This document shows, one piece after another, positions 18,257 through 42,892 of a DNA stretch of 64,000 nucleotides. The stretch lies in assembly GCA_965214495.1 (NCBI GenBank), contig OZ243958.1, positions 405,989 to 469,988 of the forward strand. The letters are read 5' to 3'. Below the pieces are notes generated by a model. That model was not told the DNA's origin, searched no databases, and saw only the letters and a list, made by a program, of their open reading frames with translations. The stretch is from Alphaproteobacteria bacterium. Lineage in GTDB: Bacteria; Pseudomonadota; Alphaproteobacteria; UBA7887. A program made the translations under genes and the position numbers. Position 1 is the stretch's first letter; every line of letters starts with the position of its first letter.

Positions 18257-18289
18257 GGACGGATGATAGCGCAGGCGGCCTCGCCCCGC

Positions 18290-18440
18290 CCGCAGGGGCG
18301 TTGTTGCGGTTCGTTGCGGTTCGTGCCGGATCGGCCCGTTTGCAGGGGCAAGCCTTGTGGTTGCCCTCGGTTGTCGTCGTTCTGCTCGGGGGTTCGGGCA
18401 ACCACAAGGGTTGCCCCTACAGATTGTTGCGGTTCGTTCC
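18290..18440. repeat. Two REP-like hairpin units (gcaggggcaagccttgtggttgccctcgg ... gggcaaccacaagggttgcccctacag) of the same family as in 5319-5822.
   Basis: The imperfect palindrome GGGCAACCACAAGGGTTGCCCCTACAG and its partner were read directly, between thyX and the adhesin-gene promoter region. Confidence 0.5.
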
Positions 18441-18662
18441 GAGGGCGGTCATGGGGTAAATGGAACGATCGTTCCATTTATAGTTGAACCGAACGTTTCA
18501 GAAAATATCCCGGTAATCTCGCGGCTACGGTCTTGACATTCCTGCAAGCGCAGGCGCCTTGTTCAAGGTCTGAGACTTGTCTTTGGGGGCGGTCGGATGA
18601 GATGTTTTCAACCTGTCTGCAAACGTGAGCGGGACGCGGAAAACGCGCGAAGCGTCGGGTTT

Positions 18663-18675
18663 GCCCCCCCCCCCC
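18663..18675. repeat. Homopolymeric (C)12 tract about 185 bp upstream of the giant autotransporter start codon.
   Basis: ttg cccccccccccc gcgcaactc was read directly. It is a potential slipped-strand site in a promoter region. Confidence 0.6.
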
Positions 18676-18858
18676 CGCGCAACTCTCGCCATCTATCTGG
18701 CGGATGACACCGGGCCTCGGGCGGGGCCGAAGCCGCCCGGCCGTGTCGCATCCAGGGCGCATATGACCGGCTTCGGGGCGCCGCCCGCGTTCCGGTCCGG
18801 GCGGTTCCGGGCCGCGCCGACGCCGTAGCTTCTCCGCCGCTTCCGGAGAGGGATCGAC

Positions 18859-20065
18859 GTGCTGAAACGGCTCGCCCGCGCCCGCCTTGCGGCCGTCCTC
18901 GCCGGCGTCGTCTGGTCGATGGCCGCCGCCGGGGTCTCCGCGCAGACAACGCTGACGCTGTCGGCCGAGCGCGGCGACGGGAACGTGGTGACCGGCGTGA
19001 ACGAGAGCGCGGGCGCCTTCACCGTCAGGGCGACGCTGGACGCGGCCGCGCCCGCGGGCGGGGTGACCGTGACCCTGGCGCAAGGCTCGACCAGCGGCGT
19101 CAGCCGTCCCGCCACCCTGGGCGCCGCGGCCGGCGAAGGCGACTGGACCCTGCCGTCGCCGCCCACCATCGCCATCGCCGCGGGCCAGACCTCCGGCACG
19201 GCGAGCATCGCGGTCGTTGACGACACGCATCACGAGTTCGAACAGAAGATCGTCCTCACCGCCACCACGGATACGACGCCCGTCCTGACCGCGCCCCGGC
19301 TCATCGTCAACCTCGGGAGCAACGATCCGAAACCCCGCGTAACCGGGATTACCGCCCCCGACCCGGTGAATGAGGGCGACACGGGCGCGGGGGCGACGCT
19401 GACATTCACGATCAACCTGGACCGGATAACCGAGACGGCGGCTTCCGTTCGATACAGGATGGGGGGCACCGCGACCGAGAACGAGGACTATACTGTCGCA
19501 CCCAGAGGGGGGCGCGACGTGATCGTCTCCGAGAGGACGAGCCAGGACGTCGTCGTCACCGTCATTCCCGACACCATCGTCGAGCCGAACGAGACCGTCA
19601 ATCTCGAAATCTATCGCTTCGGCAGCAATCTCCATCAAAACAACAATGCCTCAATACTCGCCGGCAGCAGGATCAACAACGATGACTCGCACACGGCGCC
19701 GGCGTTCGCTTCGACCGCCGGGATAGACGACCAGGTCTGGGTGGCGGACACCGCCATCTCCACGCTGGAACTGCCGGTGGCCACCGGCGGCAACGGCGCG
19801 CTGACCTACACGCTGGCGCCGGCGCTGCCGCCCGGGATGACCTTCGACGGCACAGCCGACCCCCCGACCGTTACCGGGACGCCGACCGGGACCCGGGCGA
19901 CCGCGACGTTCACCTATACGGTCGCCGATTCCGACGCCAACGAGGCCGCCGGCGACACCGACTCGCTGACGTTCGACATCGCCGTCACCGACGCGCCGCC
20001 CGGGGCGCTCACGCTGTCCATCGTCGAGACCGTGGAGCACAACGGCATGACCGTGCCCGGCGGCG
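18859..20065 (+). CDS. Giant autotransporter adhesin, fragment 1 of 4 (frame 1): Sec signal peptide plus the first Calx-beta/cadherin-like passenger modules.
   Basis: GTG start with an SD (ccggagaggga). The signal peptide MLKRLARARLAAVLAGVVWSMAAAGVSA/QT is followed by Calx-beta-like and cadherin-like (TYTLAPALPPGMTFD...TGTPT) modules. Sense is lost after ...VEHNGMTVPGG at about 20062 and continues in frame 2. The rest of ORF 18859..21411 is out of frame. Confidence 0.7.
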
Positions 20066-23000
20066 AGCGAGGGCACGGGCGACGACGAGGTCGCGCTCAT
20101 CGTGACCGCCACGCTGGACCGGCCTGCGTTGACGGGGGGCGCGACGATCCGGCTGTCCGACGCCACCGCGGCCGGGGCCGATACCGCGGTGCTCGGCGAG
20201 GACTGGTCGCTGCCCGCCGACCCCGCCATCGTCATCCCGGCGGGAGAAACGACGGGTTCCGCGTTCGTCACGATCCTCGACGACAACGTGGACGAGTGGA
20301 CCCAGACGTTCGACCTCGAGGGCGCGGTCGCCGCGCCCTCGAGCCTCACCGACACGCTCACCGTCGCCATCGAGGACAACGACCCCCGCGCCGCCGTCAG
20401 CTTCGGGCGGGATCCGGCCGCCCTGCTGGAGGGGACCGGCGGCGCGGGGGCGGTGCTCACCGTCCCGGTGCTGCTGGACCGGCCCCACGAGAAGGGCGGC
20501 GCGGCCGGCCTCGGCGTCGTCTATACGATCTCCGGCACGGCGGCGCGGGGCGAGGACTACACCATCGCGCCGGCGGCGGAGACCAGCACGGCCGGGCAGG
20601 CCCGCGTGTCGATCCCGCCCGGCGCGACGAGGGTGGACCTCGCCATCACCCTCGTCCGGGATACGGAGATCGAGGACGACGAGACGATCGCGCTCGACCT
20701 CCACGCCGTCGATGCCGAGCTGCAAGTGCTCCAGGGCGCGAAGACGAGCGCCCGCACCTCGATCCTGGACGACGACGTGGAGTCGTCGCCCGCCTTCGCC
20801 AGCGACGCCGCCGTTCCCGACCAGTTCTGGTGGAAGGACCGGGCCAACGCCCCCCTGACGCTGCCGGCGGCCAGCGGCGGCAATGGCGCGCTCACCTACA
20901 CGCTGACGCCGGCGCTGCCGGCCGGACTGACCTTCGACGCCGCGGCGAATCCCCCGACCGTCACCGGGACGCCGACCGCGAGCCTCGCCGCCGCGGCGTT
21001 CACCTACACGGTGACCGACTCCGACCCCACCTCTCCGGACAGCGCGAGCCTCGGCTTCGAGATTACCGTTGGCGCCGCGCCGACCGGCCTCGCCCTGTCC
21101 GCGGCCGCGACCGTGGACGAAGACGCCGACCTCCTGACGGTGACCGCCGAAATCGACCAGCCCGCGCGCACCGGCGGGGTGACGGTGACCTTCGCCGAGG
21201 CCGCGACGCCCGGCACCGCCGCGCTCGATACGGACTGGGCGCTGCCGCTGCCGGCCGCGGTCGCCATCGCGGCGGGCGAGACCGAGGCCGAGGCGGAGAT
21301 CGCGATTATCGGCGACCGGCGGGACGAAGACGACGAGACCGTCGTGCTCACGGCCAGCGCCGCCACTCCCGCCCTCACCGCGCCCGACCTCACCGTCACC
21401 ATCGTCGATGACGACACCCGCGCCGTCCTGGCCTCGACGGCCGCCCTCGTCGTGGATGAGGAAGACAGCGCGGGGGCGTCCTACGCCGTCACCCTCGACA
21501 GCCAGCCGATCGGGACCGTCACCGTCGCCGTCGGCGGCGCGACCGGGGAGGTCTCGGTCTCCCCGGACAGCCTGGAGTTCACCCCGGCCGACTGGCACGT
21601 CGCGCAGGAAGTGACCGTGACCGCAGCGGCCGACGCCGATGCGGCGGACGACGCCGCGACGCTGACCCACACCCCGACCGGTGGCGGCTATACGGGCGTG
21701 GCCGGGCCGCAGGTGCAGGTCACGGTCGCCGACGACGACCGGGCCACCGCCTTCGCCATGGGGGCCTCGGTCCCCGAGCAGACCTGGACCGTGGCCGACA
21801 GCGTCGCCCTGCAACTTCCGGCCGCCACCGGCGGCAGCGCCCCGCTGACCTACACGCTCACCCCGGACATCACGGCATACGGCCTGAGCTTCGACGCGGC
21901 CGCGCGCACCGTCGGCGGGTCGCCGGACCGGGCCCTCGAGAGGACGGCGTTCACCTGGAAGGCGACCGATGCCGACGCGAACGAGACCTCGTTGACCTTC
22001 CATGTCACCATCTACCGGCCGACCTTCGGGACGGAGCGGCTGGGCAACCTGTCGGTCTCGCCGGGGCCGCTGATCCCGCTCTGCGACCCGCGCGACGGAA
22101 GCTGCCCCGTCGGCTTCGACCCGGAGCGCACCTCATATACGGCGCCGCCGACCATGAGCGAGACGGTGACGGTGTCGTTCCTGGGGCCGAAGACCGGGGA
22201 TGCGGTGCGTCAAATCGTCTCGTTCGCTCGTTGCACCCCGGGCACAAGCTATTCCCAGATATGCAGTAATCACGTTTCGATCACCAACGCGACCGGCGTC
22301 TATTCGCAGACGGCCAGGCTGGGGCGGGGCAGAAACGAGATCGAGGTCCGCATCAGGGAGGAAGGAGCCGAGTCCGCCACCACCTACAGCATCGACGTCA
22401 CGCGGATCGGCAGGGTCGAGCTGACCGCCGAGCCGGCGAGCGTGGAGGAAGGCGACGGCGCGGCCCGGATAAAGGTCACCGCGCGCTACCCCTACCAGGC
22501 CGCCGCGCGTCTCGACCGCAGCACGATCGTCCTGAAGGACGCCACCCTGCCGTATCCCGTCACGGTGCCGGTGACGGTGGGCGGCGGCGGCAGCGCGCCG
22601 GCCGCGGGCGGCGGCGTGGACTTCGACGATGTGGCGGGCTTCACGCTCGTCATCCCCGCCGGCGGCAACCGCGACGCCGCGACCTTCGACCTGGCCGTGG
22701 CCGGCGACGCCCTCGACGAGGACGACGAGACGCTGGAGATCACCGGGGGCGAGGGCGTGGCGCCCGCGGAGCTGACTATCTTCGACGACGACGATCCGCC
22801 CACCGTCTCCATATCGTCCGACGACGCCGCCGTCACCGAGGGCGACGACCCGGCGGTGTCGGCCACCGTGCGCCTCGACGCCCCGAGCGGCAGGACCGTC
22901 ACCGTGGACTGGGCGACGAGCGACGGCTCGGCGAAGGCCGGCTCGGACTACACCGCCGGCTCGGGCACGCTCACCTTCGCCCCGGGCGAGACGACGAAGA

Positions 23001-24325
23001 CGGTCAGCGTCCCCATCCTCGACGACGAGGTCGCCTATGAGGGGCACAGGGAGACCTTCGCCATCGGGCTGAGCCTCCCGACGGGCGCGAACGCGATGCT
23101 CCACGACACCGATCGCACGGTCACGGTCACCGTTACCGACGACGACGGCGTCGGGGCGGCCCTGACCTTGTCCGCGCCCGGCGAGATGTGGGAGGGAGGG
23201 ACGGCGTCGGTGACCGCCACGCTGAGCCACCCGGCGCCGCCTCAGGGCCTCGACGTGACCCTCTACGAACCCACCGCGGGGCGGGGCGACGCCGTGCGGG
23301 ACTCGGACTGGTCGCTGCCGGCCGCCGTCATCGCCATCGCCGGGGGCGAGACGAGCGGCGCCGCGGCCCTCACGATCATCGACGACGACATCGACGAGCC
23401 CCGGGAGTCGATCGTGCTCCGCGCCACCACTTCCGGGCTCGTCCCCGGGCTGGACCTGTTCGCCCCCGACCTCACCATCTCGCTCTTCGACGACGACCGG
23501 GCGCCCGATCTGCTGGTCGTCTCCGCCAAGCCCGGCGAGCGGCCGGCCGACGTGGACGAGGGCGACAGCGGCCCCGGCGCGGAGTTCGAATACAAGCTGT
23601 CGCTGACCCGCGCCAGCGAGAAGGAGGTCCTCGTCACCTGGGAGGCCCTGGGCACGGCGAGCGCCGGCGAGGACTACAGCGCCGCGCCGCCCGCCGGGCA
23701 GTTCGCCTTCCCCAGGGGGCGGAAGGACTTCACCATCGTCCTCACCGTCATCCCCGACACCGACTTCGAGGAGGACGAGACGATCGGCATTCGGGTGCTG
23801 AGCGCCACCAATACCCTCGGCGTCCAGGAACCGGCGGAGACGGCGCTGAGCGCGATCCGCAACGACGACACCAACTCGACGCCCAGCTTCGCGGTCGATG
23901 CGCATATCGCCGATCAGGTCTGGGCGACGAGCGTCGATATCGGCACGCTGGAGCTGCCGGTGGCGGTCGGCGGCGGCGACGGCGGCCTGACCTACACGCT
24001 GACGCCGGACATCGCGGAATACGGGCTGACCTTCGACGCCGCCGCCGACCCGCCCAGCATCACCGGCGTTCCCGACAAGGAATTGGACGGCGTGGAGTTC
24101 CGTTACACGGTCACCGATGCGAACAACGACGCCAGATCCCTCGTCTTCGACGTCGTCATCGGAGAGCCGTCGTTCATCTTCCTCACCCCCTCGATTTACC
24201 GGGTTTCCGAGGACGCGGGCTCGGCCACCGTCCAGGTAAGGATAACTCCGGCCCCCGATCGGTCCGTTGACTACGAGCTGACCTTCACCGACGGCACGGC
24301 CACCGGGGCCGCCGACTATGAACGG
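20063..24325 (+). CDS. Giant autotransporter adhesin, fragment 2 of 4 (frame 2): repeated Calx-beta and cadherin-like domains.
   Basis: ORF 20102..24631, with sense continuing upstream to about 20063 (AASEGTGDDEVALIVTATLDRPALTGG). It holds multiple Calx-beta (DY..G.L.F.PGE....V.V.I.DD...E.DE.F.V.L) and cadherin-like modules. It ends inside a G7 run at about 24320, and the C-terminal 100 codons of the ORF are out of frame. Confidence 0.7.
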
Positions 24326-27300
24326 GGGGGCGACGGACACCACGTCCACCACCCCCAAAGAGGTAGCCAGCAGCCAGTCCGTCAAGCTCATCGACGACGA
24401 CATCGACGAGGCGGACGAGACCTTCACGGTGGCGATCGGCATCGATGCCGACACCTCGCGCGAGCACAGGGTGCTGGTCGATACCCCCAAAGAGGCCACC
24501 TGGACGATCGCCGACGACGACGATGCCCCGACGGGGATCGACCTGTCCGTGGACACGCCGGAGCTGGCCGAGAACGCCGCGCCGACCGAGGTCTCGGTGA
24601 CCGCCACCGTCACCGGCGGCACGACCTATGACGGCGCGACCACGGTGACCGTATCGGTGGACGGCAGCGGCGCCGCCGGCGTCGCCGGCTTCGCCGCGGT
24701 GGACGACTTCGACATCGTCATCCCGCACGGCGCGGAGAGCGCGAGCGGAACCTTCACCCTCGCCCCCGAGCCGAACGCCGCCGCCGGGACCGCGGAGACC
24801 GTCACCATCAGCGGTACGGCGCAGGGCGAGGAAGGCGCGTGGAAAGCCGACGAGCGCCCGGTGAACGGTTCGGCCACGATCGCGCTGGCCGATGCGCCGC
24901 TCTTCGCGGCCGAAGACGCCATCCCCGACCAGGGCTGGGTGACGGACACCGCCATCGCCGCGCTGGTGCTGCCGACGGCCACCGGCGGCGCGGCGCTCCT
25001 GGCCTACACACTGATGCCGGATCTCCCCGCCGGGGTGAGCTTCGACGGCGAGGCCGTCACCGGCACGCCGACGGAGACGGCGGCGGCGACCGCATATACC
25101 TGGACCGTCACCGACGCCGACGGCCACACCGACGCGCTGACCTTCGACATCACCGTCACCGCCGAGGCGCCGACCACGCTGACGTTCACCGCCGTCGTCA
25201 ACCCGGTGAACGAGGATGCGGGCAAGGCGGAGGTGCGGGCGCGGCTGAACCGGCCCGCGCCCACCGGCGGCGTGCGCGTGACCGGGCTCACCGTCCTCAC
25301 CGACGCTGCCATCCTGGGGGCCGACACCGCGGCGACCGCCGGCACGGACTTCACCCTGCCGGCTGACTTCACGATTCCCGCCGGCGAGTCGTCCGTGAGC
25401 GTGGACATCGTCATCATCGACGATGATCTGCTGGAAGGCGACGAGGTCATCATCCCCGACGCCACGACCGAGCCGGCGCTCACGGTCATCGGCGACCGCA
25501 TCGTCATCGCCGACGACGAGCGGCCGCCGAGCACGCTCACCCTCGCCGCCGACGCGACCGAGGTGGACGAAGACGTCGGCACGGTGGCGGTGACCGCCAC
25601 GCTGGACCACCCCGCCCCCGAGGGCGGCGTGACCGTGACGCTGGCCGAGGCCGCGACGCCCGGCACCGCCGCGCTGGGCTCGGACTGGGCGCTGCCGTCG
25701 CCGGCCACCATCGCCATCGCCGCGGGCGACACCAGCGGCTCCGCGAACCTCACCGTCACCGACGACGAGAGCGACGAACCCGGCCAGACGATCGTCCTCA
25801 CCGCCAGCACCGATACCACGCCGGCCCTCGACGCGCCCGACCTCACCATCGCCATCGACGACAACGACCCCCTGCCCGTGGTGAGCGTCGGCGCGGACCC
25901 GCCCGACGTGGACGAGGGCGACAGCGGCGCCGGCGGGACCTTCACCTTCACGCTGGAGCTGGACCGCGCCAGCGACAAGGAGCCGGAGGTCGACTGGGTG
26001 ATCGAGGGCTCGGCGGAGCGCCTGACCGACTACACCGGCGCCGGCAGCAACGACGGCGGCAGCGTGGTGTTCGGGCCGGGCGAGACGAGCCGCGATATCG
26101 TGCTCACCGTGGTGCCCGACACCTTCGACGAGCCCGACGAGACCGTTCGGCTCCGCATCGCGGCCGTCGACTCGAACGTGACGAGCGGCGCGAGGACCGC
26201 GAGCGCCTTCCGCCTGATCGTCGATGACGACGGGACGCCCACGACGCTGACGCTCTCCGCACCCGCCGAGGTGGACGAGACCGCCGGCCGGGTGCGGATA
26301 ACCGCCACCCTGGACCAGCCCGCGCCCGATGGCGGCGTGACCGTGACGGTGGCCCAGGCCGCGACGCCCGGCACCGCCACGCTGGACTCCGATTGGACGC
26401 TGGTGGACCCGCCCACCGTCTTCATCCCCGAGGGCGACAGGAGCGCGGGTTCGCCGAACGTGCTCGAGATCGAGCAGGACTCCGCCCTCGAACTCGCCGA
26501 GACCATCGTCCTCACCGCCACCACCGGCGCGCCCCTGAACCTCACCGCGCCCGACCTCACCATCTCCATCGTGGACGACGAGAACACGGCGCCGGCCTTC
26601 GGCTCCGGCGCTGCCATCGAAAACCGGATCTGGAAGACCCGTGTCGCCGTCTCCACGCTGAGGCTTCCGACCGCCACCGGCGGCAACGGGGCGCTGACCT
26701 ACACGCTGACGCCGGAACTCCCCGCCGGGCTGACCTTCGACGCCGCGGCCGACCCCCCGACCGTCACGGGCACGCCGACCGAGGGCCTGGCGACCACGCA
26801 GTTCACCTACACGGTGACCGACACCGACCTCGACAACGGCGCCGCCGACAGCGCCGCGCTCACCTTCGACCTCACGGTCACGGAGCTGCCCGTCGTCTCG
26901 CTCCGGGGCACGACCGTGACCGTCAGCGAGGGCGTGCAGGGGGGAGAGGCCACCCTGTGCATCGACTTCAGCAAGGCGCCGACCGAGGAGTTCCAGCTCC
27001 GCCTCGACTCCACCGACGTGACCGCCACGGGCAACGTCGATTACCAGGTTGTGAGTCGGGATGCGACGGTCAGCGCGGGGAGCCAGCTCTCCCGTTGCGT
27101 GACTTTCGAGATTGTGGACGACTCGATCGACGAGGGCGGCGAGACCTTCACCGTGGCGCTCAGCGTCCAGGGCGACAACGCGGAGAAGGCGTTCGTCAAC
27201 CCCGACGCGGCGATGGCGACGTGGACCATCACCGACAACGACGACGCGCCGGACGGCATCGACCTGTCGGCGGACACCCAGAGCGTCGCCGAGGGCGGCG

Positions 27301-30300
27301 GCGCCGCCGACATACGGGTCACCGCCACCGTCGCCGGCGATACGACCTACTCCGGCGTCACCACGGTCACCGTGTCGGTGGCCGGCAGCGGCGAGGACAA
27401 CGTGGTCGGCTTCACCGCGGTGGACGACTTCGACATCGCCATCCCGGACGGCGGCACGAGTGCGTATGCGGACTTCACGCTGACCCCGGTGGACGACACG
27501 CTGGACCAGTCGGACGAGACCGTCACCCTCCAGGGCGCGGCCGCGGGCGAGGAAGGCGCGCACAGGGCCGGCCAGCGCCCGGTGAACACGCCCTTGCCGA
27601 CCGTCACGCTGACCGACGACGACGAAGACACGGCGCCGGCCTTCGCCCAGGGCGCCGAAATTGCCGACAAAGCCTGGACGAAGGGCGTGGACGTCGGCGC
27701 GGTCGCGCTGCCGGCGGCCACCGGCGGCAACGGCGACCTGGCCTACACGCTGGCGCCGGACATTTCGGCGTTCGGGTTGACCTTCGACGCCGCGGCCGAC
27801 CCGCCCACCATCGCCGGCGCGCCGACGAGCACGCTGGCCGACGACCCGGATACCCCGGTGGACGAGACCCTGTTCACATACACCGTCACCGACGCCGACT
27901 TCGAGAACCCCGAGAGCGCCGCACTGACCTTCAACGTCGCCATCGACGATCCGCCGGTGGTGGCCGTCGCGGCGCAGAGCGTGGGCGAAGGCGACGGCGA
28001 GACGACGCTGACCGTGACCCGCACGGGCAACCTCACGGTCGCGTCGAGCGCGAGCTACGCCTTCACCGACGGCACCGCGACGGGCGGCGGGACGGACTAT
28101 ACGGGGACCGGCGGGACGGTCAGCTTCGCGGTGAACGAGACCTCGGCGACGATCCCCGTCACCATCGTTCAGGACACCATCGACGAAGACCCCGACGAAA
28201 CCTTCACGGTGACGCTGAGCGTACCGAGCGGGGCGACGCTGGGGACGGCCAGCGCCGTCATCACGATTACCGATGACGACGATGCGCCGACGAGGGTGGT
28301 GCTGAGCCTGGACGGGGACCCGAACACCGCGGGCGAGCAGGCTTCGGTGGACGAGGGCGGCGGCGCGCAGACGGTGACCGTGAAGGCGTCGCTCGATGGT
28401 GGCACGACGCGGGCCGAGGCCACGGTGGTGACCGTGACGGTGGCGGCGGACACGGCGACGGAGACGACCGACTACACGGCGACGGTGGCCGATCCGTTCG
28501 AGATCGAGATTCCGGCGGCGACGGTGAGCGGGACGGGGACGTTCTCGATTATTCCGGTGGACGACAGCATCGACGACGACGCCGAGACGCTCTCGGTGAC
28601 CGGAAGCACGGAAGCCTCGGTGGGCCTTGCGGTGACGGGAGCGGACCTGACGATCGCGGACGACGACGAGGTCCCGGCGAAGCCTGCGAAATTCGCGGCG
28701 GCGGCGGGCAACGCGCAGGTGACGCTGAGTTGGGACGACCCCGGGGACAGCAGCATCGAGAAGTACCAAATCCGGCAGTGGGAGAGCGCCGACAGCGAAC
28801 CCGCCACCTGGACCGACATCGCAAGCAGCGATGCCGACACGGTGAGCCACACCGTCACCGGGCTGACCAACGCCACCGAATACAGCTTCCGCATCCGGGC
28901 GGTGAACGCGACCGGCGACGGCGCGCAGTCCGACGCGGCGACGGCGACGCCGGCGGATGCCCCGGCAAAGCCGGCGAACTTCGCGGCGGCGGCCGGCAAC
29001 GCGCAGGCGACGTTGAGTTGGGACGACCCGAGCGACAGCAGCATCGAGAAGTATCAGCTCCGGCAGTGGGCGAGCGCCGACAGCGAGCCTGCCACCTGGA
29101 CCGACATTGCCGGCAGCGACGCCGACACGGTGAGCCACACCGTCACCGGGCTGACCAACGGGACAGCTTACAGCTTCAGGGTCCGGGCGGTGGGCGCGGG
29201 CGGCGACGGGGCGCAGTCGGACATCGCGACGGCCACGCCGGTCGCCGTCACGGGCGCCGATTCTTCACCGGCGCCCACGGTGGTCGGTGACGACATTACC
29301 GCCACCGTTGGCGGCACGAACGTGAAGTTGACGCTGCCGAGCGGCCATGGCGTGAGCGCCGTCACGTTTTCCGTGCCGACGCCGGCGGTCGCCGCACCCG
29401 ACGGCGTGACCTTTGGCGACGATCCGGCTTATGTGGACATCGACCTCGGCACGGCGTCGCTCTCGTCGGACGCCGCGGTCTGCCTCGCCGAGCCGAGCGG
29501 GCTGTCGGGCACGCTGGCGCTCTATCACCTCTCCGACGGCGGAACGGCGTGGACGGGGCTGGACGCCCCCGCCTCGACGCCGACCGGCTTCGTGTGCGGC
29601 GAGACGAGCGATTTCTCCAGCTTCGTGGTGGGCAAGCAGGAGGCGACGCTCGCACTGTCGATCGTGGAGACGATCGAGCATGGCGGCGAGACGGTGCCGG
29701 GGGTGTCGGAGGGCGAGAGTGCGGATGTGGCGCTCGTGGTGACGGCGACGCTGAGCGCGCCGTTGGCGTCGGCGGTCGAGTTGACGCTGGAGGACGCCTC
29801 GGGGACCGGCGACCGCGCGACGCTCGACGAAGACTGGTCGCTGCCGGAGGACCTGACGACGACGATCGAGGCGGGGGACACGACCGCCACCTGGACGGTC
29901 ACGATCGTCCACGACGCCGATGAGGAGTATAGCGAGACGTTCACGCTCCGGGCGACAGCCACCGCCCCGGCTCTGTCGGCGGATCTCGGGATCCGCATCG
30001 GGGACAACGACGACGCGCCGGTGCTGGACCGGATCGAGAAGACGGCGGACGTGGATGAGGGCGACAGCGGCACGGGCGCCACCATCACGTTCACGGTGTA
30101 TCTGACCGGTGCGACGGACAAGACCAGGCTCGAATACCTGTTCTCGCCGTACGGCGTGGACCCGAACCGGGCGACCTTCCTCCTCCCCTACGACACCTAC
30201 ACGGGGGCGGAGGACTACGCGCTGGAGACGGACACCCCGAACACGTGGGGGGTGCTGAAGTATGCGAAAGGACAGGCGAGCGCCGACATCGTATTCAGGG

Positions 30301-33300
30301 TGTTTCCCGACACCGACGGCGAGCCGGACGAGCGGTTCTACGTCGCCGTCACGTCGGATTGGCAGGACTCCGAGGCGATCCGCCTGAACTCGGCTCCGGC
30401 CACCATTCGGAACGACGACCTCTCCATGCTGAGCCTGTCCGCTGCGCCGAACCCGGTGGACGAGGACGACGGTCCGGCGGTGGTGACGGCGACGCTGAAC
30501 GAGCCGGCGCCGGAGGGCGGGGTCACGGTGACGCTGGCCGAGGCGAAGGATGAAGACGACGAGCCGCTCGGCAGCGCCGCCCTCGACACCGACTGGTCGC
30601 TGCCGTCGCCGGCCACCATCTCCATCGCGGCGGGCGAGACGAGCGGCGAGGCGAACGTCGCCATCACCAACGACTCCCTGGACGAGCCGGACGAGACCAT
30701 CGTCCTCACCGCCACCACCGGTGCGCCGCTGGACCTCACCGCGCCCGACCTCACCGTCACCATCGACGACGACGATCCCGAGCCCACCGCCTCCATCGCC
30801 ATCACCGCCGAAGAGGCGAGCGTCACCGAGGGCACGGACTCCGAGGTGTCGGCCACCATCGGTCTCGACGCCGCCAGCGCGAGGAGGGTCAAGGTGGGCT
30901 GGTCGACGAACAGTGGCACGGCGAGGTCCGACTCGGACTACACCGGCTCGGGCAGCGTGCTGACGTTCGCACCGGGCGAGACGACGAAGACGGTCACGGT
31001 TCCCATCCTCGACGACGACAAGTACGAGCCGGAGGTGGAGACGTTCACGATCTCTCTGGATCCCGATGTACCGAACTCGAATGCGCAGCTCCACGCGACC
31101 GATACGAGCGTCACGGTGATGATCACCAGCGACGACGCGGCGCCGGTGATCGCGCTCGCGGCGCAGACGGTGGGCGAGGGTGCGGGGGCGACGACGCTGG
31201 CGGTGACGCGCAGCGGGGACGATCTGAGCGTGGCGTCGAGCGCGAGTTACACCTTCACCGACGGGACGGCGACGGGGAGCGGGACGGACTACACGGGGAC
31301 GGACGGGACGGTGAGCTTTGCGGCCAACGAGACCGCGGCGACCATCCGCGTCACCATCGTGCAGGACACACGGTGGGAGGACCCCGACGAGACCTTCACG
31401 GTGACGTTGAGCGCGCCGAGCGGGGCGACGCTGGACCCGGAGACGCCGGTGACGATGACGATCACGGACGACGACGCGGAGCCGGTCGCGGTAAGCATTC
31501 CCGACGCGAACCTGCGCGCGGGGCTGGAGGCGGCGCTGGGCAAGAGCGCTGGCGACACGATTACGGACGCCGAGTTGGCGGGTCTGACGAAACTCGAAGT
31601 GGAGGCGGCGGAGGGAGCGGCCGAGAGCGCGAAGGTGAGCGACCTGACGGGGCTCGCTTACGCGGTCGGCCTGCGGACCCTGGACCTCACCCGCAACGCG
31701 CTCGAGAGCGACGACCTGACCCACATCGCCGGGCTGAGCGCGCTGCGCAACCTGTTCCTGGAATACAACGCAATCAGCGACGTGTCGTCGCTGAAAGACC
31801 TGACGGGGTTGCGCGACCTGCGGCTATACGACAACGACGTCACGGACATCGAGCCGCTGGTGGAGAACACGGGGCTGGGCAGCGGAGACTCCGTCGATCT
31901 GCGCATCAACAGCCTCGATTACCCCTCGGTCAACACTCACGTGCCTGCTCTGACGGGCCGGGGGGTGACGGTGAATTTCTTTGACCGGACGCCGACGACG
32001 CTGACGGTCGTCTCCGGCGACGATCAGGCGGGTCCGGGGGGCGAGGCGCTGGCGGCTCCGTTCGTGGTGCGAGTGGATGACGAGGACGGGGACCCGTTCG
32101 AGGGCGTGCCGGTGACGTTCACGGTCACCGCGGGCGGGGGGACGCTGGACGACGAGACCGACACCGAGACCCCGGTGGTCGTCGCGACGGACGCCGCGGG
32201 CGAGGCGGAGGCGACCCTGACCCCGGGCACGACCGTCGAGACCAACACGGTTCAGGTGACGGCGGCGGAGATCGCGGACGCCGCGACCTTGACCGCGACG
32301 ACGAACGACGTGCCGACGCTATCCATCGCCGACCAGACGGTGGCCGAGGGTGCGGGGAGCACGACGCTGACGGTGACGCGGACGGGCGATCTCAGCGGGA
32401 CCTCGAGCGCGAACTACGCCTTCGCCGACGGCACCGCGACGGGCAGCGGGACCGACTACACGGGGACGAGCGGGACGGTGACCTTCGCGGCCACCGAGGG
32501 CAGCAAGACCATTCCCGTCACCATCGTTCAGGACACGATCGACGAAGGCGCGAGTGAAGCGTTCACGGTGAGTCTGAGCAGTCCGAGCGGCGCGATTCTG
32601 GGCGATGCGGAGGCCGCGATCAGCATCGCCGACGACGACACGCGGGGCGTCACGGCGAGCGAGTCGGCGCTGACGATGACCGAGGCGGACGGGACGGGGG
32701 CCAGCTACACGGTGGTGCTCGATTCGCAGCCGACGGACGATGTGACGGTGGCCATCGGCATCGAGGACGGCTCCGGCAACCTGCTGACCGACCACGACCT
32801 GACCATCGGCCCGTCGGCGACGCTGACCTTCACGACAAGCGATTGGGCGACGGCGCAGACGGTGACTGTGACGGCCGGGGAAGACACGGACACGACGACC
32901 GACACGGCGACGCTGACGCATGCTCCGACCGGCGCCGACTACACGGGGGTGACCGGCCCGGAGGTGACGGTCACGGTCACCGACGACGATTTCACCGTCA
33001 CGGGCGCCGATTCTTCGCCGGCGCCCACGGTGGTCGGTGACGACGTTACCGCCACGGTCGGCGGCACGAACGTGAAGTTGACGCTGCCGAGCGGTCACGG
33101 CGTGGGCGCCGTCACCTTTTCCGTGCCGACGCCGACGGTCGCCGCACCCGCCGGCGTGACCTTTGGGGACGATCCGGCCTATGTGGACATCGACCTGGGC
33201 ACGGCGATGCTCTCGTCGGACGCCACGGTTTGCCTCGCCGAGCCGAGCGGGCTGTCGGGCACGCTCGAGCTCTATCACCTCTCCGACGGCGGAACGGCGT

Positions 33301-36300
33301 GGACGGGGCTGGACGCCCCCGCCTCGACGCCGACCGGCTTCGTGTGCGGCGAGACGAGCGATTTTTCGAGCTTCGTGGTGGGCAAGCAGGACGAGGAAGA
33401 GGAGCTGACGCCGGGTCAGGTGACGGGGCTGAGCGCGACGCGGGCGTCTTTCGGCGCCGGGCGCTTTGTGGACCTGAGCTGGACGGCGCCGGCCGACGGC
33501 GGCGCGGTGGTGTCCTACGAAGTGCAGTCGCGGCGCGGGACGAGCGGCGAGTGGACCACCGCTGCGAGCGACGTCGAGGGAACCGCCTATCGCGCGGTAG
33601 GGATAAGCTTCGCCTATTATGAATACCGGGTGCGGGCGCTGAACGCCCACGGCGCCGGGGAGTGGTCGGAGGAGGCCACGGTCGGCACGCCGCCGCCTCA
33701 GGAGCCGGGCGCGCCGCAGAACCTCGCAGCGACGGTGAACAGCTCCAGCCGGGTCACGCTCGTCTGGGTCGCGCCCACGGAGACCTACGGTAACGGCGAT
33801 CCGATCCCGGTCACCGGCTACGTGATCGAGCGCGCCACCGGCGACGAGGGCGCCTTCCACAGCGTCGAGAACAACCATGCCGCCAGCCCTTATGTGGACA
33901 CGGGGCTGACAGCGGGCACGCGATACCGGTGGCAGGTGATAGCGTTCAACGACGCCGGCTTCAGCAATGAGTCGAACGTGGTAGCCGCGACGACGACCGC
34001 GAATCAGGCGCCGACGGGTTCCGTGACGATTACCGGCACGGCGACGCAGGGCGAGACGCTGACGGCGGACACCTCCGGCATCGCGGACCCGGACGGTCTC
34101 GGGACCTTCGCCTGGCAGTGGCATCGCGACGGCGCGGATATCTCCGAGGCGACGGGGTCGACCTACGATCTGGTGCAGGCCGACGTGGGTGCGGCGATCA
34201 CGGTGACGGTGAGTTGGACCGACGGCGGCAATACGGCGGAGTCGCTGACCTCGACCGCCACGGCGGCGGTGACGAACGTGAACGACGCACCGACCGGTGC
34301 GGTGACGATCACGGGCACGGCGACACAGGGCGAGACGCTGACGGCGGACACTTCCGGCATCGCGGACGCGGACGGTCTCGGGACGTTCTCCTACCAGTGG
34401 AAGCGCGACGGCACGGACATCCCCGGCGCGACGGCCTCCACTTACACGCTGGCGCAGGCCGATGTGGGTGCGGCGATCGCGGTGACGGTGAGTTGGACCG
34501 ACGGCGGCAATACGGTGGAGTCGTTGACCTCGGCCGCCACGGCGGCGGTGGCCGCCGCCGCCGCCGACGACGGGCCGTACGGGTTCACGCTTTCTGTGGA
34601 TCAGGCTTCGATCCCGGAGGGATCGACGACGACGGTGAGGGTGACGGCGGAGCTTGACACGGACGATCCGACGGCGGTTGCGCCTGCGGACATCGTCCTC
34701 ACGCTGGGGGTGGTGGATTTGTCGGCGGCGTTGGACACGGACTACGAGCTTCCTGCGACGTTGCCGACGTTGACGATCTCGTCCGGGTCTCGCGTCGGCA
34801 GCGTGGATATTGCGGTGACGGCGCTTCGCGATGCGGGCGACGATGTGCGCCAGTTCAACTTCGTGGTGGAGAGCTTCGCGGTGACGGGGGGCTTGACGCT
34901 GACCGCGCCGGACGGTGTGGAGACGGCGGCGAGCGGGTCGGCGACGGTGAGTATCGCGCCGACGGCGTCGCTTCCGGTGCTGACGCTGGATACGGGCAAT
35001 CCTGCGGTTGCGACGCGTGAGGGTGACGTGGAGGGTCGCCCGGTGACGCTGTCGGTGTCGCCTGCGGCGTCGGAGGCGCTGTCGGTGTCGATGGGCGTGG
35101 CGGCCGTTCCGTCGGGGAGCGTGGTGTGGTGCGTGGGCGCGGCAGCGGACTGCGTGGAGGATTGGGACCATGACGGGGATGGGGACACCGACCCCATTCG
35201 CCGGGTCAGGACGCCGGACAACGAGCAGGAGACGCACGAGGTCACGATCCCGGCGGCCGCGTCGCAGGCGACCTTCCATGTGTTTGCGGCGCATGACGAC
35301 GACGCGCAGGACGGCGCGGTGAGGCTAACGGTGAACGAGGCGTCCTCGACGCTGGGGGCGACGGCGCTTTCGGAGGCGATCTCCGACGGCGAGTTCGGGA
35401 GCGTGGTGGAGACGCGCAACGCGGTGTCTGTGGAGGACGACGATGAGGCGCTGGCGTGGTCGGGGACGGTGGGCGACCAGTGGTATCGGCAGGGTGTGGC
35501 GATCGCGAGCTTGAGGCTGCCCGCGGCGACGGGGGGCGTGGGCGCGATTACCTACACGCTGGAGCCGGCGCAGGGGCAGGCGTTCCCGCCGGGTCTGGGC
35601 TTTGCGGCCGGCTCGCGCACGCTCTCGGGGACGCCGGAGGCGGGGGGCGTCTGGACGCTGACCTATGCGGCGACCGACGGGGTGAGCACGGTCACGGACG
35701 AGATCAAGGTGACGGTGGCGGGCGCGGTGTTCGCGGGTGCGGACGATGTAGCGGTGACCGAGGAGGGGGCGACGGACAGCTACACGGTGGCGCTGGCGAC
35801 GCCGCCGAGAGGTTCGACGCCGGTGACGGTGACGGTGACGGTGGTGCGGGGCGACGCGGAGGCGGTCGTCGATACCGATGCGGACGCGGCGGGTTCGCAG
35901 AACACGCTGACTTTCACGCACGGCAACTGGGCGACGGCGCAGACGGTGACGGTGTCGGCGGGTGCGGACGCCGACGCCGACGACGAGCAGGCGGTGCTCG
36001 GCCACGGCTTTGCGGGGTTTGGCTACGCCGGCGTGACGGTTGCCGATGTGACGGTGGCGGTTGCCGACGACGACACGGCGGGGGCGGTGTTCGCGCCGTC
36101 GGCGCTGCCGTCGCTGACCGAGGGAGGATCGACGGACTACACGGTGGCGCTGGCGACGCGGCCGCCGGGCCCGGTGACGGTGCTGATCGCGAGCGACAAC
36201 GCCGACGTGACGGTGTCGCCGGCGTCGCTGGCGTTCGCGGTGGACGGTTGGGCCACCGCGCAGAGGGTGACGGTGACGGCGGGGCAGGACGCCGACGCTG

Positions 36301-39300
36301 CGGATGACGCGGCGGTGCTGAGGCACTCGTTCAGCGGGCAGTATGGGGCGGCGACGCAGGGGCTGGCGGTGTCGGTGACCGACGACGACACGGCGGGTCT
36401 GGCGTTCGACCCGGCATTGCTGGAGCTGTCCGAGGGCGGGACGGGGCAATACACGGTGGCGCTGGCGACGCAGCCGGCGGGTCCGGTGACGGTGACGGTG
36501 ACGAGCGGCGACACGGCGGCGGCGACGGTGTCTCCCGGCGAGCTCACCTTCACGACCGCCGATTGGGACACGGCGCAGACGGTGACGGTGACGGCGGTCG
36601 AGGACGACGACGCGCAGGACGAGACGGTCTCGCTCGACCATGCGGTCACGGGTTATGCCGGCGTAGCCTCGGCGTCGTTGCTGGTTGCGGTGGCCGACGA
36701 CGAGACCGCGGGCGTCACCCTGGACACTTCGGGGCTGGCCGGGTTCGGGGAAGGCGGCGATGCGACCTGGACGGTCGTGCTTGACACGCTGCCGAGTGCG
36801 TCGGTGACGGTGACGCTGGAGTTGACCGGCGACGGCGACCTGTCGGTGGATCGGACGGCGCTGAACTTCACGACGGGCAATTGGGACACGCCGCAGACGG
36901 TGACGGTGAGCGCGGCGCAGGACGCCGACCTGACGGACGATACCGGACAGGTCGTCCATACCGCCGCCGGGGCGTCGGAATATGCCGGGCTGGAGGCGAC
37001 GGCGGCGCTGAGCGCGGCGGACGACGACAGTGCGGCGCTGGTGCTGAGCGCGAGCGCGCTGACGCTGCTGGAGGGCGGCGACGGGCAGTCGTGGACGGTG
37101 AAGCTGAACGCGCAGCCCTCGGGCGCCGTGCGCGTCGCCATCGCCAGCGACAATGCGGACGTGACGGTGAGCACGGCGGTGCTGGCCTTCACGACGAGCG
37201 ACTGGAACAGCGCGCAGACGGTGACGGCGCGCGCGGCGCACGACTCCGACGCGACGAACGACACGGGGGTGACGCTGACCCACACCGCCCACACCGCTGC
37301 CGTGGGCGGCTTCGACGGGGTGACGGCGGCGCTGTCGGCGTCGGTGACGGACCGGGCGCCGTCTCTGGCGATCGGCGCGGCGTCGGTGTCGCCGTCCGAG
37401 GGCGGGCAGGCGTCCTACACGGTGAAGCTGGGGACGCGGCCGTCGGCGACGGTGTATGTGGCGGTGGGGCACAGCGGCGACGCCGACATCCAGGCTGCCC
37501 CGGCGAGCCTGGAGTTCCGGCCCGACGACTGGAACGCGGCGCAGACGGTGACGGTGCGCGCGGCGCAGGACGCCGACTTCGTGGACGACGCGGCGGTGCT
37601 GACGCACACGGCGAGCGGCGGCGCCTATGCGGGTCTGGCCGGCGAGAACGTGGCGGTGAGCGTGACGGACGACGACGCGCCGGGTGTGTCGGTGGCGGGT
37701 TCGACGACCGACGACGCGTCGGTGACGGTGGCTGAGGGGGCGGCGGAGTCGGCGTTCTACAGCGTGGTCCTGACGGCGCAGCCGACGGACGCGGTGACGG
37801 TGTCGGTCTCGAAGAGCGGCGGTGCGCGGGTCGTGGCGCTTCCGTCGTCTCTGAAGTTCACGCCGGCGACGTGGAACATCGCGCAGCAGGTGGGGGTGTT
37901 TGCGCGCGCCGACGCGAACGGGGTGGACGAGACGGCGGTGCTGAGCCACAGCGCGTCGGGCGGCGGCTATGGCGGGGTGGACATCCCGTCGGTGGATGTG
38001 TCGGTGACCGACGACGACACGCCGGCGCTGACCTTCGCGCCCTCGGCGTTGGCGTTCGACGAAGGCGGCGAGAGCGCATACGAGGTGAGCCTTGCGACGA
38101 AGCCGACGGTGTCGGTGACGGTGTCGGTGTCGAGCGACAACGACGAGGTGACGGTGGACACCGACCCGGACACGGCGGGCGAACAGGACAGGCTGACCTT
38201 CACGGCGAGCGACTGGGATACGGCGCAGACGGTGACGGTTCGGGCGACGCCGGACGCGGACGCGGCGGACGACACCGCGGTGCTGTCCCACGACGCCGGC
38301 GGGGGCGAGTATGAGGACGTGTCGGGCGATGTGTCGGTGAGCGTGACCGACGGGATCGTCCCCGGGGTGGTGGTGAGCGCGACGGAACTCGATGTTGCTG
38401 AGGGCGGGACGGGGACCTGGACGGTGCGTCTTGCGACGCCGCCTTCGGGCACGGTGACGGTGACCGTGTCGAGCGACAATGCCGATGTCACGCTTGGGCA
38501 GGCGGCGGCGGACGGGACGCGGAGCCTGACGTTCAACGCGAACAACTGGTCGAGCGCGCGCGAGGTGCGGGTTCGGGCGGCGCAGGACGACGATGCGGTG
38601 GACGACACGGCGATGCTGTCTCATGCGGTGTCGGGCTACGGTTCGGTGACGAGCGGTCCCGCTGTGACGGTGACGGTGACCGACAACGACGAGGCGGGGG
38701 TGACGATCTCGCCGCTGGCGCTGGATCTGACGGAGGATGCGTCCGGCGGCGGCAACGAGGGTTCCTACACGGTGGTTCTCGACTCGCAGCCGACGGCGCC
38801 GGTGACGGTGACGGTGGCGAGCGACAACGCCGATGTGACGGTGTCGCCGGCGAGCCTGAGCTTCACGACGACCGACTGGGCGACGCCGCAGGAGGTGGCG
38901 GTGACGGCGGCGCAGGACGCCGACGCGGCGGACGACACGGCGGTTCTGTCCCATGCGGTGTCCGGCTACGGGGCCGGCGACGAGGCGGTGACGACCGGCC
39001 CCGCAGTGTCGGTGAGCGTGACGGACGACGACACGGCGGCGCTCGTGTTGTCGGTGTCGTCGCTGTCGTTCGAGGAGGGCGGCGCGGCGCAGGACTACAC
39101 CGTGGCGCTGGCGACGCAGCCGACGGCGACGGTGACGGTGGCGGTGACGAGCGACAACGCCGACGTGACGGTCGCGCCGGCGAGACTGACCTTCACGACG
39201 GGCAATTGGGCGACGGCGCAGACGGTGACGGTGACGGCGGCGGCGGACGCCGACGCGGCGGACGACACGGCGGTGTTGAGCCACGCGGCGAGCGGCGGCT

Positions 39301-42300: not shown

Positions 42301-42892
42301 TGTCGGCGCTGGAGATCGACGAGGGCGGGTCGGGTTCCTACACGGTGCGGCTGGCCAACGGGCCGCCGACCGGGTCGGTCGTCGTGGCGATCGCGAGCGA
42401 CGACGCCGACGTGTGGACGGTGCAGAAGAACCTGGTCTTCACGACCGCGAACTGGGAGACGGCGCAGACGGTCGCGGTGCAGGCGGGCGAGGACGCCGAC
42501 GCGGAGGCCGACGAGGCCGCTCTGACGCACACCGCGAGCGGCGGCGGCTTCGACGGCGTGACCGGGGTCGTGACCGTCGCCGTGGCCGACAACGACACGC
42601 TGCCGGCGGCGCCGGCCGACTTCACGGCGACGCCGCGGGACGGCGAGGTCGCGCTGAGCTGGGACGCCCCCGCGCCGGCGGACGCGGTGACCGGCTACGA
42701 GTGGCGCCGGGACGGCGGCTCGTGGACCGCCATCGCGAACAGCGCCGACCTGACGAGCCACACGGTCACCGGGCTGACCAACGGGACTGCCTACAGCTTC
42801 GGTCTGCGGGCGGTGAACGCCAGCGGCGCCGGGGCGGCAGCGACCGCGACCGCGACGCCGCAGCCGAAGCCGGGACAGGTGACGGGGGTTGA
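24318..42892 (+). CDS. Giant autotransporter adhesin, fragment 3 of 4 (frame 0; about 6,190 codons): Calx-beta, FN3 x2, duplicated 130-aa block, LRR region, Big-like and cadherin-like repeats, and about 22 tandem 100-aa modules of the ...[26 protein letters not shown]... family.
   Basis: ORF 24318..43289. The two FN3 modules are ...LSWDDPGDSSIEKYQIRQW...YSFRIRAVNATGDG. The LRR stretch is at 31500-31900 (LTGLRDLRLYDNDVTDIEPL). Sense ends at a G5 run at about 42890 and continues in frame 1. Confidence 0.75.

What the first reader, a model, noticed from the sequence alone, without database searches (positions are those of the whole stretch)
24312..24330. Two of the three frame breaks in the giant adhesin are +1 shifts inside poly-G runs, and a (C)12 tract sits in its upstream region: phase variation or homopolymer error?
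The break at about 24320 lies in gaac-GGGGGGG-cgacgg (7 G). The break at about 42890 lies in gtgac-GGGGG-ttgacc, where the paralogous copy at 33430 has GGGG. Every single-base break in both large adhesin loci, five in total, is a +1 insertion.

A C12 homopolymer lies at 18663-18675, about 185 bp upstream of the start codon. Simple-sequence tracts in or upstream of large surface-adhesin genes are the classic substrate for slipped-strand phase variation. They are also the classic site of sequencing-technology indel errors. The two explanations give different biology: an ON/OFF-switchable adhesin versus an intact gene.
Basis: partly seen in the sequence, partly recalled or inferred. Interest (0 to 1): 0.7.

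Follow-up and report, generated by a model that had tools for sequence, protein, structure and literature searches.

The report
Single-base frame breaks in giant adhesin genes
Two giant surface-adhesin genes are interrupted by one-base insertions, mostly in short runs of G; these are assembly errors or fixed mutations rather than an on/off switch, and only the 13-C run upstream of the larger gene is a credible, untested switch candidate.

Summary
The breaks sit at a G7 (24324-24330) and a G5 (42884-42888; the paralog has G4). The upstream tract is C13 (18664-18676), not C12.

All five single-base breaks in the two loci are +1 insertions. Three lie in G runs (G4>G5, G5>G6, G6>G7) and two lie outside any run of 4 or more. 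A sixth break, at 56630, is a 28-nt deletion between two perfect CGGCGGC repeats.

With the three extra bases removed, the first gene encodes a 9,512-aa protein. It has a Sec signal peptide, a Calx-beta/FN3/LRR passenger and a C-terminal autotransporter barrel. Every break therefore abolishes surface display.

Phase variation does not explain the breaks. Three independent lesions sit in one gene and only one is in a run of 7, so no single slip can switch the gene on.

The sequence alone cannot separate consensus error (about 0.45) from genuine recent frameshifts (about 0.38). No close relative or independent assembly was found.

C13 is a strong outlier (0.03 expected by chance) in a window depleted of long runs. 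It is a plausible but untested expression-level phase-variation tract. The overall phenomenon is of a known kind and of low to moderate interest.

The parts
18664..18676 (+). C13 homopolymer in the 602-nt intergenic region between divergent thyX (17342-18256, minus strand) and the adhesin start. It ends 182 nt upstream of the GTG at 18859.
   Evidence: 1 match; 0.03 expected in shuffles. No sigma-70-like promoter was detected around it.
18859..20060 (+). Adhesin locus 1, segment 1 (phase 1). GTG start, RBS ggagagg, and Sec signal peptide VLKRLARARLAAVLAGVVWSMAAAGVSA|QT.
   Evidence: An in-frame stop at 18826 excludes an earlier start.
20051..20080 (+). Break b1, a +1 shift from phase 1 to phase 2. 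The window holds only CCC, GG and GGG runs, so the inserted base cannot be resolved.
   Evidence: The paralog alignment is too divergent to place the base.
24324..24330 (+). Break b2, a G7 tract and a +1 shift from phase 2 to phase 0, in the middle of a Calx-beta domain.
24330..42883 (+). Adhesin locus 1, central segment (phase 0), about 6,185 aa of Calx-beta, FN3 and LRR repeats. GC3 is 0.92 and there are no internal stops.
33425..33428 (+). In-frame G4 at the position paralogous to break b3.
42884..42888 (+). Break b3, a G5 tract and a +1 shift from phase 0 to phase 1, at the start of an FN3 module.
42889..47400 (+). Adhesin locus 1, last segment (phase 1). It holds FN3 repeats and the C-terminal autotransporter beta-barrel (about 46138-47397), ending ...QYRIRF.
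   Evidence: 667 homologs, many with PF03797.
47503..50484 (-). Intact classical autotransporter gene (993 aa) lying between the two giant loci.
   Evidence: PF03797, 1.7e-20.
50684..60401 (+). Adhesin locus 2. It has a signal peptide, LRR, Calx-beta repeats of 348 nt x 10.9, He_PIG domains, and a barrel paralogous to that of locus 1. It is broken three times.
50958..50975 (+). Break b4, a +1 shift inside an LRR unit (cccggcttgaatttgg). There is no run longer than 3.
53612..53617 (+). Break b5, a G6 where four paralogous repeats have G5. It is a +1 shift.
56630..56636 (+). Break b6, the single retained CGGCGGC at the junction of a 28-nt deletion. The preceding repeat has two copies exactly 28 nt apart, at 56282 and 56310. 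The frame shifts by -1.

Best explanation
The frame breaks are slippage-type single-base duplications in two giant autotransporter-type adhesin genes. They do not form a switch.

My single most likely reading is that the five +1 breaks are uncorrected indel errors of the assembly consensus, in which a base is over-called, mostly in G runs. On this reading the cell carries an intact 9,512-aa gene: Sec signal peptide, Calx-beta/FN3/LRR passenger and C-terminal beta-barrel.

Shown:
- the position and sign of each break
- that deleting one base restores the domain at b2 and the full-length reading frame for all three breaks of locus 1
- that both protein ends are needed for export

Inferred:
- that the extra bases are technical rather than biological

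The C13 tract upstream is a separate, real feature. If anything at this locus is phase-variable, it is C13, acting on transcription rather than on the reading frame.
For: - Three of the five breaks sit in G runs, and the hit rate per tract rises with run length: 1 of about 20 tracts whose inferred original length is G6, 1 of about 56 for G5, and 1 of the far more numerous G4. This is the usual homopolymer signature.
- All five breaks are same-base duplications of the same sign.
- The coding signal is untouched on both sides of every break. GC3 is 0.91-0.97, and there is no in-frame stop in 28.5 kb once the three bases are removed.
- b5 lies in sequence that is 60/60 identical on both sides to the neighbouring repeat, so the event is extremely recent or not real.
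- A 73% GC genome assembled from 262x PacBio reads with Quiver still carried 205 indels in 7.17 Mb, nearly all in G or C homopolymers (PMC4832174). That is the same order as 3 homopolymer breaks in 64 kb.
- A third paralog elsewhere in the same 3.26-Mb contig (P0020) is also called as a truncated 285-aa fragment that starts inside the barrel. This is expected if long genes rich in G runs are hit repeatedly.
Against: - All five breaks are insertions, whereas nanopore assemblies err mainly by homopolymer deletions (PMC12007338 Table 1).
- Two breaks (b1, b4) are not in runs of 4 or more.
- About 26 other genes in the window have full-length Pfam matches and no frameshift. This is only weak evidence, because 82 of the 108 G/C runs of 5 or more lie in the adhesin loci.
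- Locus 2 also carries a 28-nt deletion between perfect 7-nt direct repeats. This is a typical in-vivo mutation, not a consensus error, so at least that gene is probably genuinely broken.
- The sequencing platform and the reads are unknown to me.
Confidence: 0.45

Rival explanations
1. The breaks are genuine, fixed, recent frameshift mutations, so both giant adhesin genes are decaying pseudogenes. Replication slippage duplicated single bases, mostly in G runs, and deleted 28 nt between direct repeats. Once the first lesion had inactivated each gene, later lesions were neutral.
For: - The 28-nt deletion lies exactly between two CGGCGGC copies 28 nt apart. It is a classical spontaneous deletion and is unlikely to be a consensus error.
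- One process would then explain all six lesions.
- Lesions are confined to the two adhesin loci, while about 26 neighbouring genes and the 993-aa autotransporter are intact.
- Two insertions lie outside homopolymers.
- The all-insertion pattern does not fit the deletion bias of nanopore assemblies.
- A third paralog in the genome is also truncated.
Against: - There are no nonsense codons and no loss of GC3 periodicity in 38 kb.
- b5 sits in a perfectly homogenised repeat.
- Five of five single-base events share the same sign, which is unusual for spontaneous mutation too.
- The concentration in the adhesins is not significant once G-run exposure is counted.
Confidence: 0.38
2. The in-gene G tracts, especially the G7, are slipped-strand phase-variation tracts. 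They switch the adhesin ON and OFF at the level of translation, and the deposited sequence is an OFF variant.
For: - The G7 is the longest coding run in a window where runs of 7 or more are strongly depleted, and it lies in a surface-adhesin gene.
- From established knowledge, G6/G7-type tracts can revert at low frequency. Examples are the Bordetella bvgS C6/C7 tract and the M. tuberculosis glpK C7 tract.
Against: - Three separate breaks sit in one gene, one outside any run and one in a G5. ON would need three simultaneous corrections.
- The tract lengths are below those of classical contingency G/C tracts, which from my own knowledge are usually 8 or more.
- Paralogs carry the same runs one base shorter and in frame. 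Homologous adhesins in other organisms carry in-frame G7 runs inside intact ORFs (L083). G runs are therefore ordinary Gly-coding sequence in this family.
- No length polymorphism could be observed.
Confidence: 0.06
3. This reading is independent of the three above and not exclusive with them. The C13 tract is a genuine hypermutable tract in the adhesin's regulatory region. Changes in its length would alter promoter geometry or regulator spacing and so vary transcription of the giant adhesin.
For: - C13 is expected 0.03 times by chance.
- Every other G/C run in the 64 kb is 7 or shorter.
- It lies in the 602-nt intergenic region 182 nt upstream of a well-supported start codon of a surface adhesin.
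- No run of 9 or more occurs in about 800 kb of loci around thyX homologs from other organisms.
- From established knowledge, poly-C or poly-G tracts of 11-15 in promoters drive phase variation of Bordetella fim and of Neisseria opc and porA.
Against: - No sigma-70-like -35/-10 pair flanks or spans the tract. The nearest hexamer-like motifs, TTGCCC and TATCTG, would be 28 nt apart.
- The transcription start is unknown.
- There is no comparative or population data.
- The exact length of a 13-base run in a single assembly is itself uncertain.
Confidence: 0.3
4. Programmed +1 ribosomal frameshifting, or quadruplet decoding at GGG-G, reads through the breaks. The deposited sequence would then be correct and functional.
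For: b2, b3 and b5 all have the form GGG-G, where tRNA-Gly could re-pair in the +1 frame. All five breaks require the same +1 direction.
Against: - Paralogous copies lack the extra base, so the sites are not conserved.
- No slow or stop codon follows the slip sites.
- b1 and b4 have different contexts.
- Three successive low-efficiency events would give negligible full-length product.
- b6 is a 28-nt deletion that needs the opposite shift.
Confidence: 0.01

Closest known systems
Homopolymer indel errors in long-read or flow-based bacterial assemblies, giving 'frameshifted' pseudogene calls
   Same: The breaks are single-base changes concentrated in G/C runs of a 70% GC genome, and they fragment very long genes. 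The density is comparable with that reported for a PacBio-only high-GC assembly (PMC4832174).
   Different: All five events here are insertions, and two are outside runs of 4 or more. Nanopore errors are mostly deletions (PMC12007338). The platform of this genome is unknown.
Slipped-strand phase variation of surface proteins through intragenic poly-G/C tracts (Neisseria, Haemophilus, Campylobacter and Helicobacter contingency loci; the Bordetella bvgS C-run)
   Same: A G run sits inside a surface-adhesin ORF, and its length determines the reading frame.
   Different: Classical loci have one tract, usually of 8 or more units, whose change alone restores the frame. Here there are three lesions per gene and tracts of 5-7. 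One lesion is outside any run, and no length polymorphism is shown.
Promoter poly-C/G phase variation (Bordetella fim2/fim3 C-stretch; Neisseria meningitidis opc and porA)
   Same: A poly-C tract of about 13 lies upstream of a surface-protein gene.
   Different: In those systems the tract lies within or next to the -35/-10 spacer. Here no promoter could be placed and the tract is about 180 nt from the start codon. The link is resemblance only.
Classical (type Va) autotransporter adhesins
   Same: An N-terminal Sec signal peptide, a repetitive passenger, and a C-terminal barrel domain whose homologs carry PF03797 and end in an aromatic residue.
   Different: The query's own Pfam hit is below threshold. 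At 9,512 aa, with a Calx-beta/FN3/LRR passenger, it would be far larger than typical autotransporters, if it is intact.

Membership tests
Intragenic slipped-strand phase-variable (contingency) gene | A simple-sequence tract within the ORF that is long enough to be hypermutable (about 8 or more for G/C homopolymers). | tested here: not met
   The tracts at the breaks are G7, G5 and G6. b1 and b4 have no run longer than 3.
Intragenic slipped-strand phase-variable (contingency) gene | A length change of that one tract alone toggles between the full-length ORF and a truncated one. | tested here: not met
   Locus 1 needs three separate one-base corrections to read through its 9,512 codons. Locus 2 needs two such corrections plus repair of a 28-nt deletion.
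Intragenic slipped-strand phase-variable (contingency) gene | Tract-length polymorphism within a population or between strains. | not testable with these tools
   No reads are available and no close relatives were found. Flank proteins are singletons at 90% identity. The best adhesin homolog is 34-39% identical. The metagenome scans were empty or distant.
Promoter-tract phase variation (Bordetella fim / Neisseria opc type) | A long homopolymer upstream of a surface-protein gene. | tested here: met
   C13 at 18664-18676, ending 182 nt upstream of the GTG at 18859. The chance expectation is 0.03.
Promoter-tract phase variation (Bordetella fim / Neisseria opc type) | The tract lies in or beside the -35/-10 spacer or an activator site, so that its length sets promoter strength. 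| tested here: inconclusive
   The consensus scan finds no sigma-70-like promoter in 18200-18900. Alphaproteobacterial or ECF promoters are not covered by that scan, and the transcription start site is unknown.
Assembly homopolymer error | Indels located in homopolymers, with frequency rising with run length. | tested here: met
   Three of five breaks are in G runs. About 1/20 of G6 tracts, 1/56 of G5 tracts and a smaller share of G4 tracts are affected, counting tracts by their inferred original length.
Assembly homopolymer error | Similar breaks spread over other genes of the same assembly. | tested here: inconclusive
   None occurs in about 26 other genes of the window. Those genes hold only 26 of the 108 runs of 5 or more. 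A third paralog elsewhere in the genome is truncated.
Assembly homopolymer error | Raw reads or an independent assembly disagree with the consensus. | not testable with these tools
   The exact-sequence look-ups found this genome only once and returned no contig record for it.
Type Va autotransporter | An N-terminal Sec signal peptide. | tested here: met
   By inspection, VLKRLARARLAAVLAGVVWSMAAAGVSA|QT in locus 1 and MRRARRLLRTAPGAFAFALAVPLLAAPAALA|QD in locus 2. No predictor was run.
Type Va autotransporter | A C-terminal PF03797-type beta-barrel. | tested here: inconclusive
   The query itself gives only TIGR01414 at E=0.066 and no Pfam hit at 1e-3 or better. It has 667 homologs at 35-48% identity, many with precomputed PF03797, and one is named autotransporter beta-barrel protein. 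It ends in F, and the locus 2 barrel ends in W.

The most novel reading that the evidence does not exclude
The locus could be a two-level contingency system in a high-GC, apparently free-living alphaproteobacterium. A hypermutable C13 tract would tune transcription of a 9.5-kaa autotransporter adhesin. The G7 would be a genuine low-frequency translational switch, and the other breaks would be assembly errors. If the gene is intact, it would also be among the largest autotransporter passengers known.
Probability: 0.06. Interest if true: 0.55.

Novelty: already known. Interest (0 to 1): 0.22.

Why it matters
If the breaks are errors, this genome encodes at least two, and probably three, enormous autotransporter adhesins that annotation will have split or labelled as pseudogenes. 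The record should then be polished.

If the breaks are real, the strain has recently lost its whole family of giant adhesins. That would say something about its lifestyle or its history in culture.

Neither outcome is new biology in kind. The only element that could lead to something new is the C13 tract. It would be a rare example of promoter-tract phase variation outside the classical pathogens, and it is cheap to test.

Tried and rejected
- Comparison with related strains was not possible.
  - Ten flank proteins are in the public collection only once each, on a 3,261,019-bp NCBI/ENA contig.
  - Exact look-ups of four proteins returned no contig.
  - The genome-contig scan with the adhesin N-terminus gave only two 28%-identical Rhodothermales MAG hits.
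  - The metagenome scan with the repaired b2 region gave nothing.
  - The metagenome scan with thyX gave 80 loci at 74% identity or less. None had the adhesin next to thyX, and none had a G/C run of 9 or more.
  - The protein search with the repaired b2 region gave only 32-39% identical Calx-beta fragments.
- Identifying the genome and its sequencing platform from the contig length in the literature failed.
- Placing b1 by aligning paralogs failed because the copies are too divergent.
- Rfam and tRNA scans of the window found nothing.
- I tested whether the intact flanking genes argue against assembly error. The result is not significant once the distribution of G runs is counted.
- Programmed +1 frameshifting was considered and rejected, because paralogs lack the extra base and the contexts differ.
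- A G9-minus-2 origin of the G7 cannot be excluded for b2. It is unnecessary, because b3 and b5 have paralogs exactly one G shorter.
Full report
**What is in the sequence**

The window is 70.6% GC. A G7 lies at 24324-24330 and is the only G7 in the 64 kb. A G5 lies at 42884-42888, and the paralogous copy at 33425-33428 has G4, with 86% identity over 250 nt. The upstream tract is C13 at 18664-18676, not the C12 at 18663-18675 that was reported. It ends 182 nt before the GTG at 18859.

C13 is expected 0.03 times in dinucleotide-preserving shuffles. Runs of 7 or more are strongly depleted overall: two loci are observed against about 21 matches expected. Both of those loci belong to this one gene.

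**The gene**

ORF layout and GC3 periodicity show one coding unit from 18859 to 47400. It passes through phases 1, 2, 0 and 1.

Removing one base at each of the three breaks gives a 9,512-codon frame with no internal stop. Its parts are:
- an N-terminal Sec-type signal peptide preceded by a good RBS
- a passenger of Calx-beta, FN3, cadherin-like and LRR modules
- a C-terminal 420 aa ending in ...QYRIRF

That C-terminus has 667 homologs at 35-48% identity. Many carry PF03797, and one is named an autotransporter beta-barrel protein. The query itself reaches only TIGR01414 at E=0.066.

A second locus (50684-60401) has its own signal peptide, LRR units, a 348-nt x 10.9 Calx-beta array, He_PIG domains and a paralogous barrel. 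An intact 993-aa classical autotransporter gene lies between the two loci on the other strand.

An autotransporter needs its signal peptide and its barrel on one polypeptide. Any one break therefore abolishes surface display. This step rests on established knowledge of type V secretion.

**The breaks**

- b1 lies between 20051 and about 20080, in gtgcccggcggcgagcgagggcacggg. It is a +1 shift with no run longer than 3, and the paralogs are too divergent to place the base.
- b2 is the G7. Removing one G turns a half Calx-beta match (profile 8-58, 29 bits) into a full one (8-119, 64.8 bits).
- b3 is confined to 42883-~42895 by a stop in the downstream frame. Removing one G gives VTGL..., which matches the paralog's VTGL.
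- b4 lies in 50958-50975, inside an LRR unit (cccggcttgaatttgg). It is a +1 shift outside any homopolymer.
- b5 is a G6 at 53612-53617. Four paralogous repeats have G5, and 60/60 nt are identical on each side to the next repeat.
The last 348-nt repeat lacks 28 nt. The preceding repeat has two perfect CGGCGGC copies exactly 28 nt apart (56282 and 56310), and the broken repeat keeps one (56630). This is the footprint of a slipped-strand deletion between direct repeats. It shifts the frame by -1.

All five single-base breaks are therefore +1, as claimed. Three of them lie in G runs that are one base longer than the in-frame state. G/C runs of 5 or more cover about 1% of the adhesin DNA. By my estimate the chance of three of five breaks falling in such runs is near 1e-3, so the association with runs is real.

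**Is it phase variation?**

For the in-gene tracts, no.
- A contingency gene has one hypermutable tract whose length alone sets the frame. Locus 1 needs three independent corrections, one outside any run and one in a G5.
- Tracts of 5 to 7 are at or below the lengths at which G/C runs are known to behave as contingency repeats. This threshold is from established knowledge.
- G runs are ordinary Gly-coding sequence in this family. The window has 20 in-frame G6 runs, mostly in the adhesins. A homologous adhesin locus from a metagenome has in-frame G7 runs repeated every 660 nt inside intact ORFs.

Programmed +1 frameshifting at GGG-G was considered. It is rejected because the paralogs lack the extra base and b1, b4 and b6 do not fit.

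**Error or real mutation?**

I could not settle this. No related strain or independent assembly exists in any collection I could search, and the reads are not available.

*For error:*
- The hit rate rises with run length, as expected for homopolymer error.
- All five breaks have the same sign.
- The coding signal is perfect on both sides, and there are no stop codons in 38 kb.
- b5 sits in a perfectly homogenised repeat.
- The rate is comparable with the 205 residual G/C-homopolymer indels per 7.17 Mb left in a 262x PacBio/Quiver assembly of a 73% GC genome (PMC4832174).
- A third paralog elsewhere on the same contig is also called as a truncated fragment (P0020).

*For real mutation:*
- The 28-nt microhomology deletion is unlikely to be a consensus artefact. 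At least locus 2 is therefore probably truly broken.
- Two insertions lie outside homopolymers.
- Nanopore assemblies err mainly by deletion (PMC12007338).
- About 26 other genes in the window have full-length Pfam matches and no frameshift. This last point is weak, because 82 of the 108 G/C runs of 5 or more lie in the adhesin loci.

I put consensus error at about 0.45, genuine recent frameshifts at about 0.38, and a true G7 switch at about 0.06.

**The C13 tract**

This is the one feature that stands out statistically. It lies in the 602-nt divergent intergenic region between thyX and the adhesin gene. Poly-C or poly-G tracts of this length in promoters drive phase variation of Bordetella fimbriae and of Neisseria Opc and PorA. 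That comparison is from established knowledge and was not tested here.

No sigma-70-like promoter could be placed around the tract, and the nearest hexamer-like motifs are 28 nt apart. There is no transcription-start or population data either. I rate it at about 0.3 as a real expression-level phase-variation tract, independently of how the frame breaks are explained.

**Verdict**

The switch interpretation is not supported for the breaks and remains open for the C13.

The phenomenon is of a known kind: homopolymer indels that fragment giant repeat genes. Interest is low to moderate. The points worth following are the C13 tract and, if the gene is intact, the unusual size of an autotransporter passenger.

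Noticed in passing
window 56282-56636: There is a 28-nt deletion exactly between two perfect 7-nt direct repeats (CGGCGGC) in the last unit of the 348-nt array. It creates a GTGA stop/start overlap at 56652-56655. It looks like a genuine slipped-strand deletion, and it is the only lesion in the two loci that is not a single-base insertion.
   Followed up: yes
window 18859-47400, 47503-50484 (-), 50684-60401: Three autotransporter-type genes are clustered here, two of them giant. If intact, locus 1 encodes 9,512 aa, which would be exceptionally large for a passenger exported through a type V barrel. The cluster lies between thyX and rpsU and has no counterpart next to thyX in 80 related metagenomic loci.
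   Followed up: partly
outside the window (protein P0020, same 3,261,019-bp contig): A third paralog of the adhesin barrel is called as a 285-aa protein that starts in the middle of the barrel domain. This implies another frame break or stop in a third adhesin gene of the genome.
   Followed up: partly
window 1-64000: G/C homopolymers of 7 or more are about ten-fold depleted relative to dinucleotide shuffles (2 loci against about 21 matches expected). The only two exceptions both belong to adhesin locus 1.
   Followed up: yes
window 62000-62800: GC content drops sharply to 36-50% in a 70% GC context. The drop overlaps an ORF with weak methyltransferase similarity (62063-62809), followed by a 2OG-Fe(II) oxygenase gene. 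This may be horizontally acquired DNA.
   Followed up: no
L083 6577-10178 and 14608-16588: The closest barrel homolog (46% identity, from a contig whose name (ctg585627_30x_l) I take to indicate a long-read metagenome assembly) is itself preceded by an overlapping Calx-beta ORF, which suggests a split gene. The neighbouring ORF of more than 3,500 aa carries in-frame G7 runs every 660 nt.
   Followed up: partly
window 24318-24330: An ATG lies 6 nt upstream of the G7, in the downstream frame (ATGAACGGGGGGG). ORF finders therefore start the 6,323-aa fragment there. No Shine-Dalgarno sequence is evident, so it is probably coincidental.
   Followed up: no
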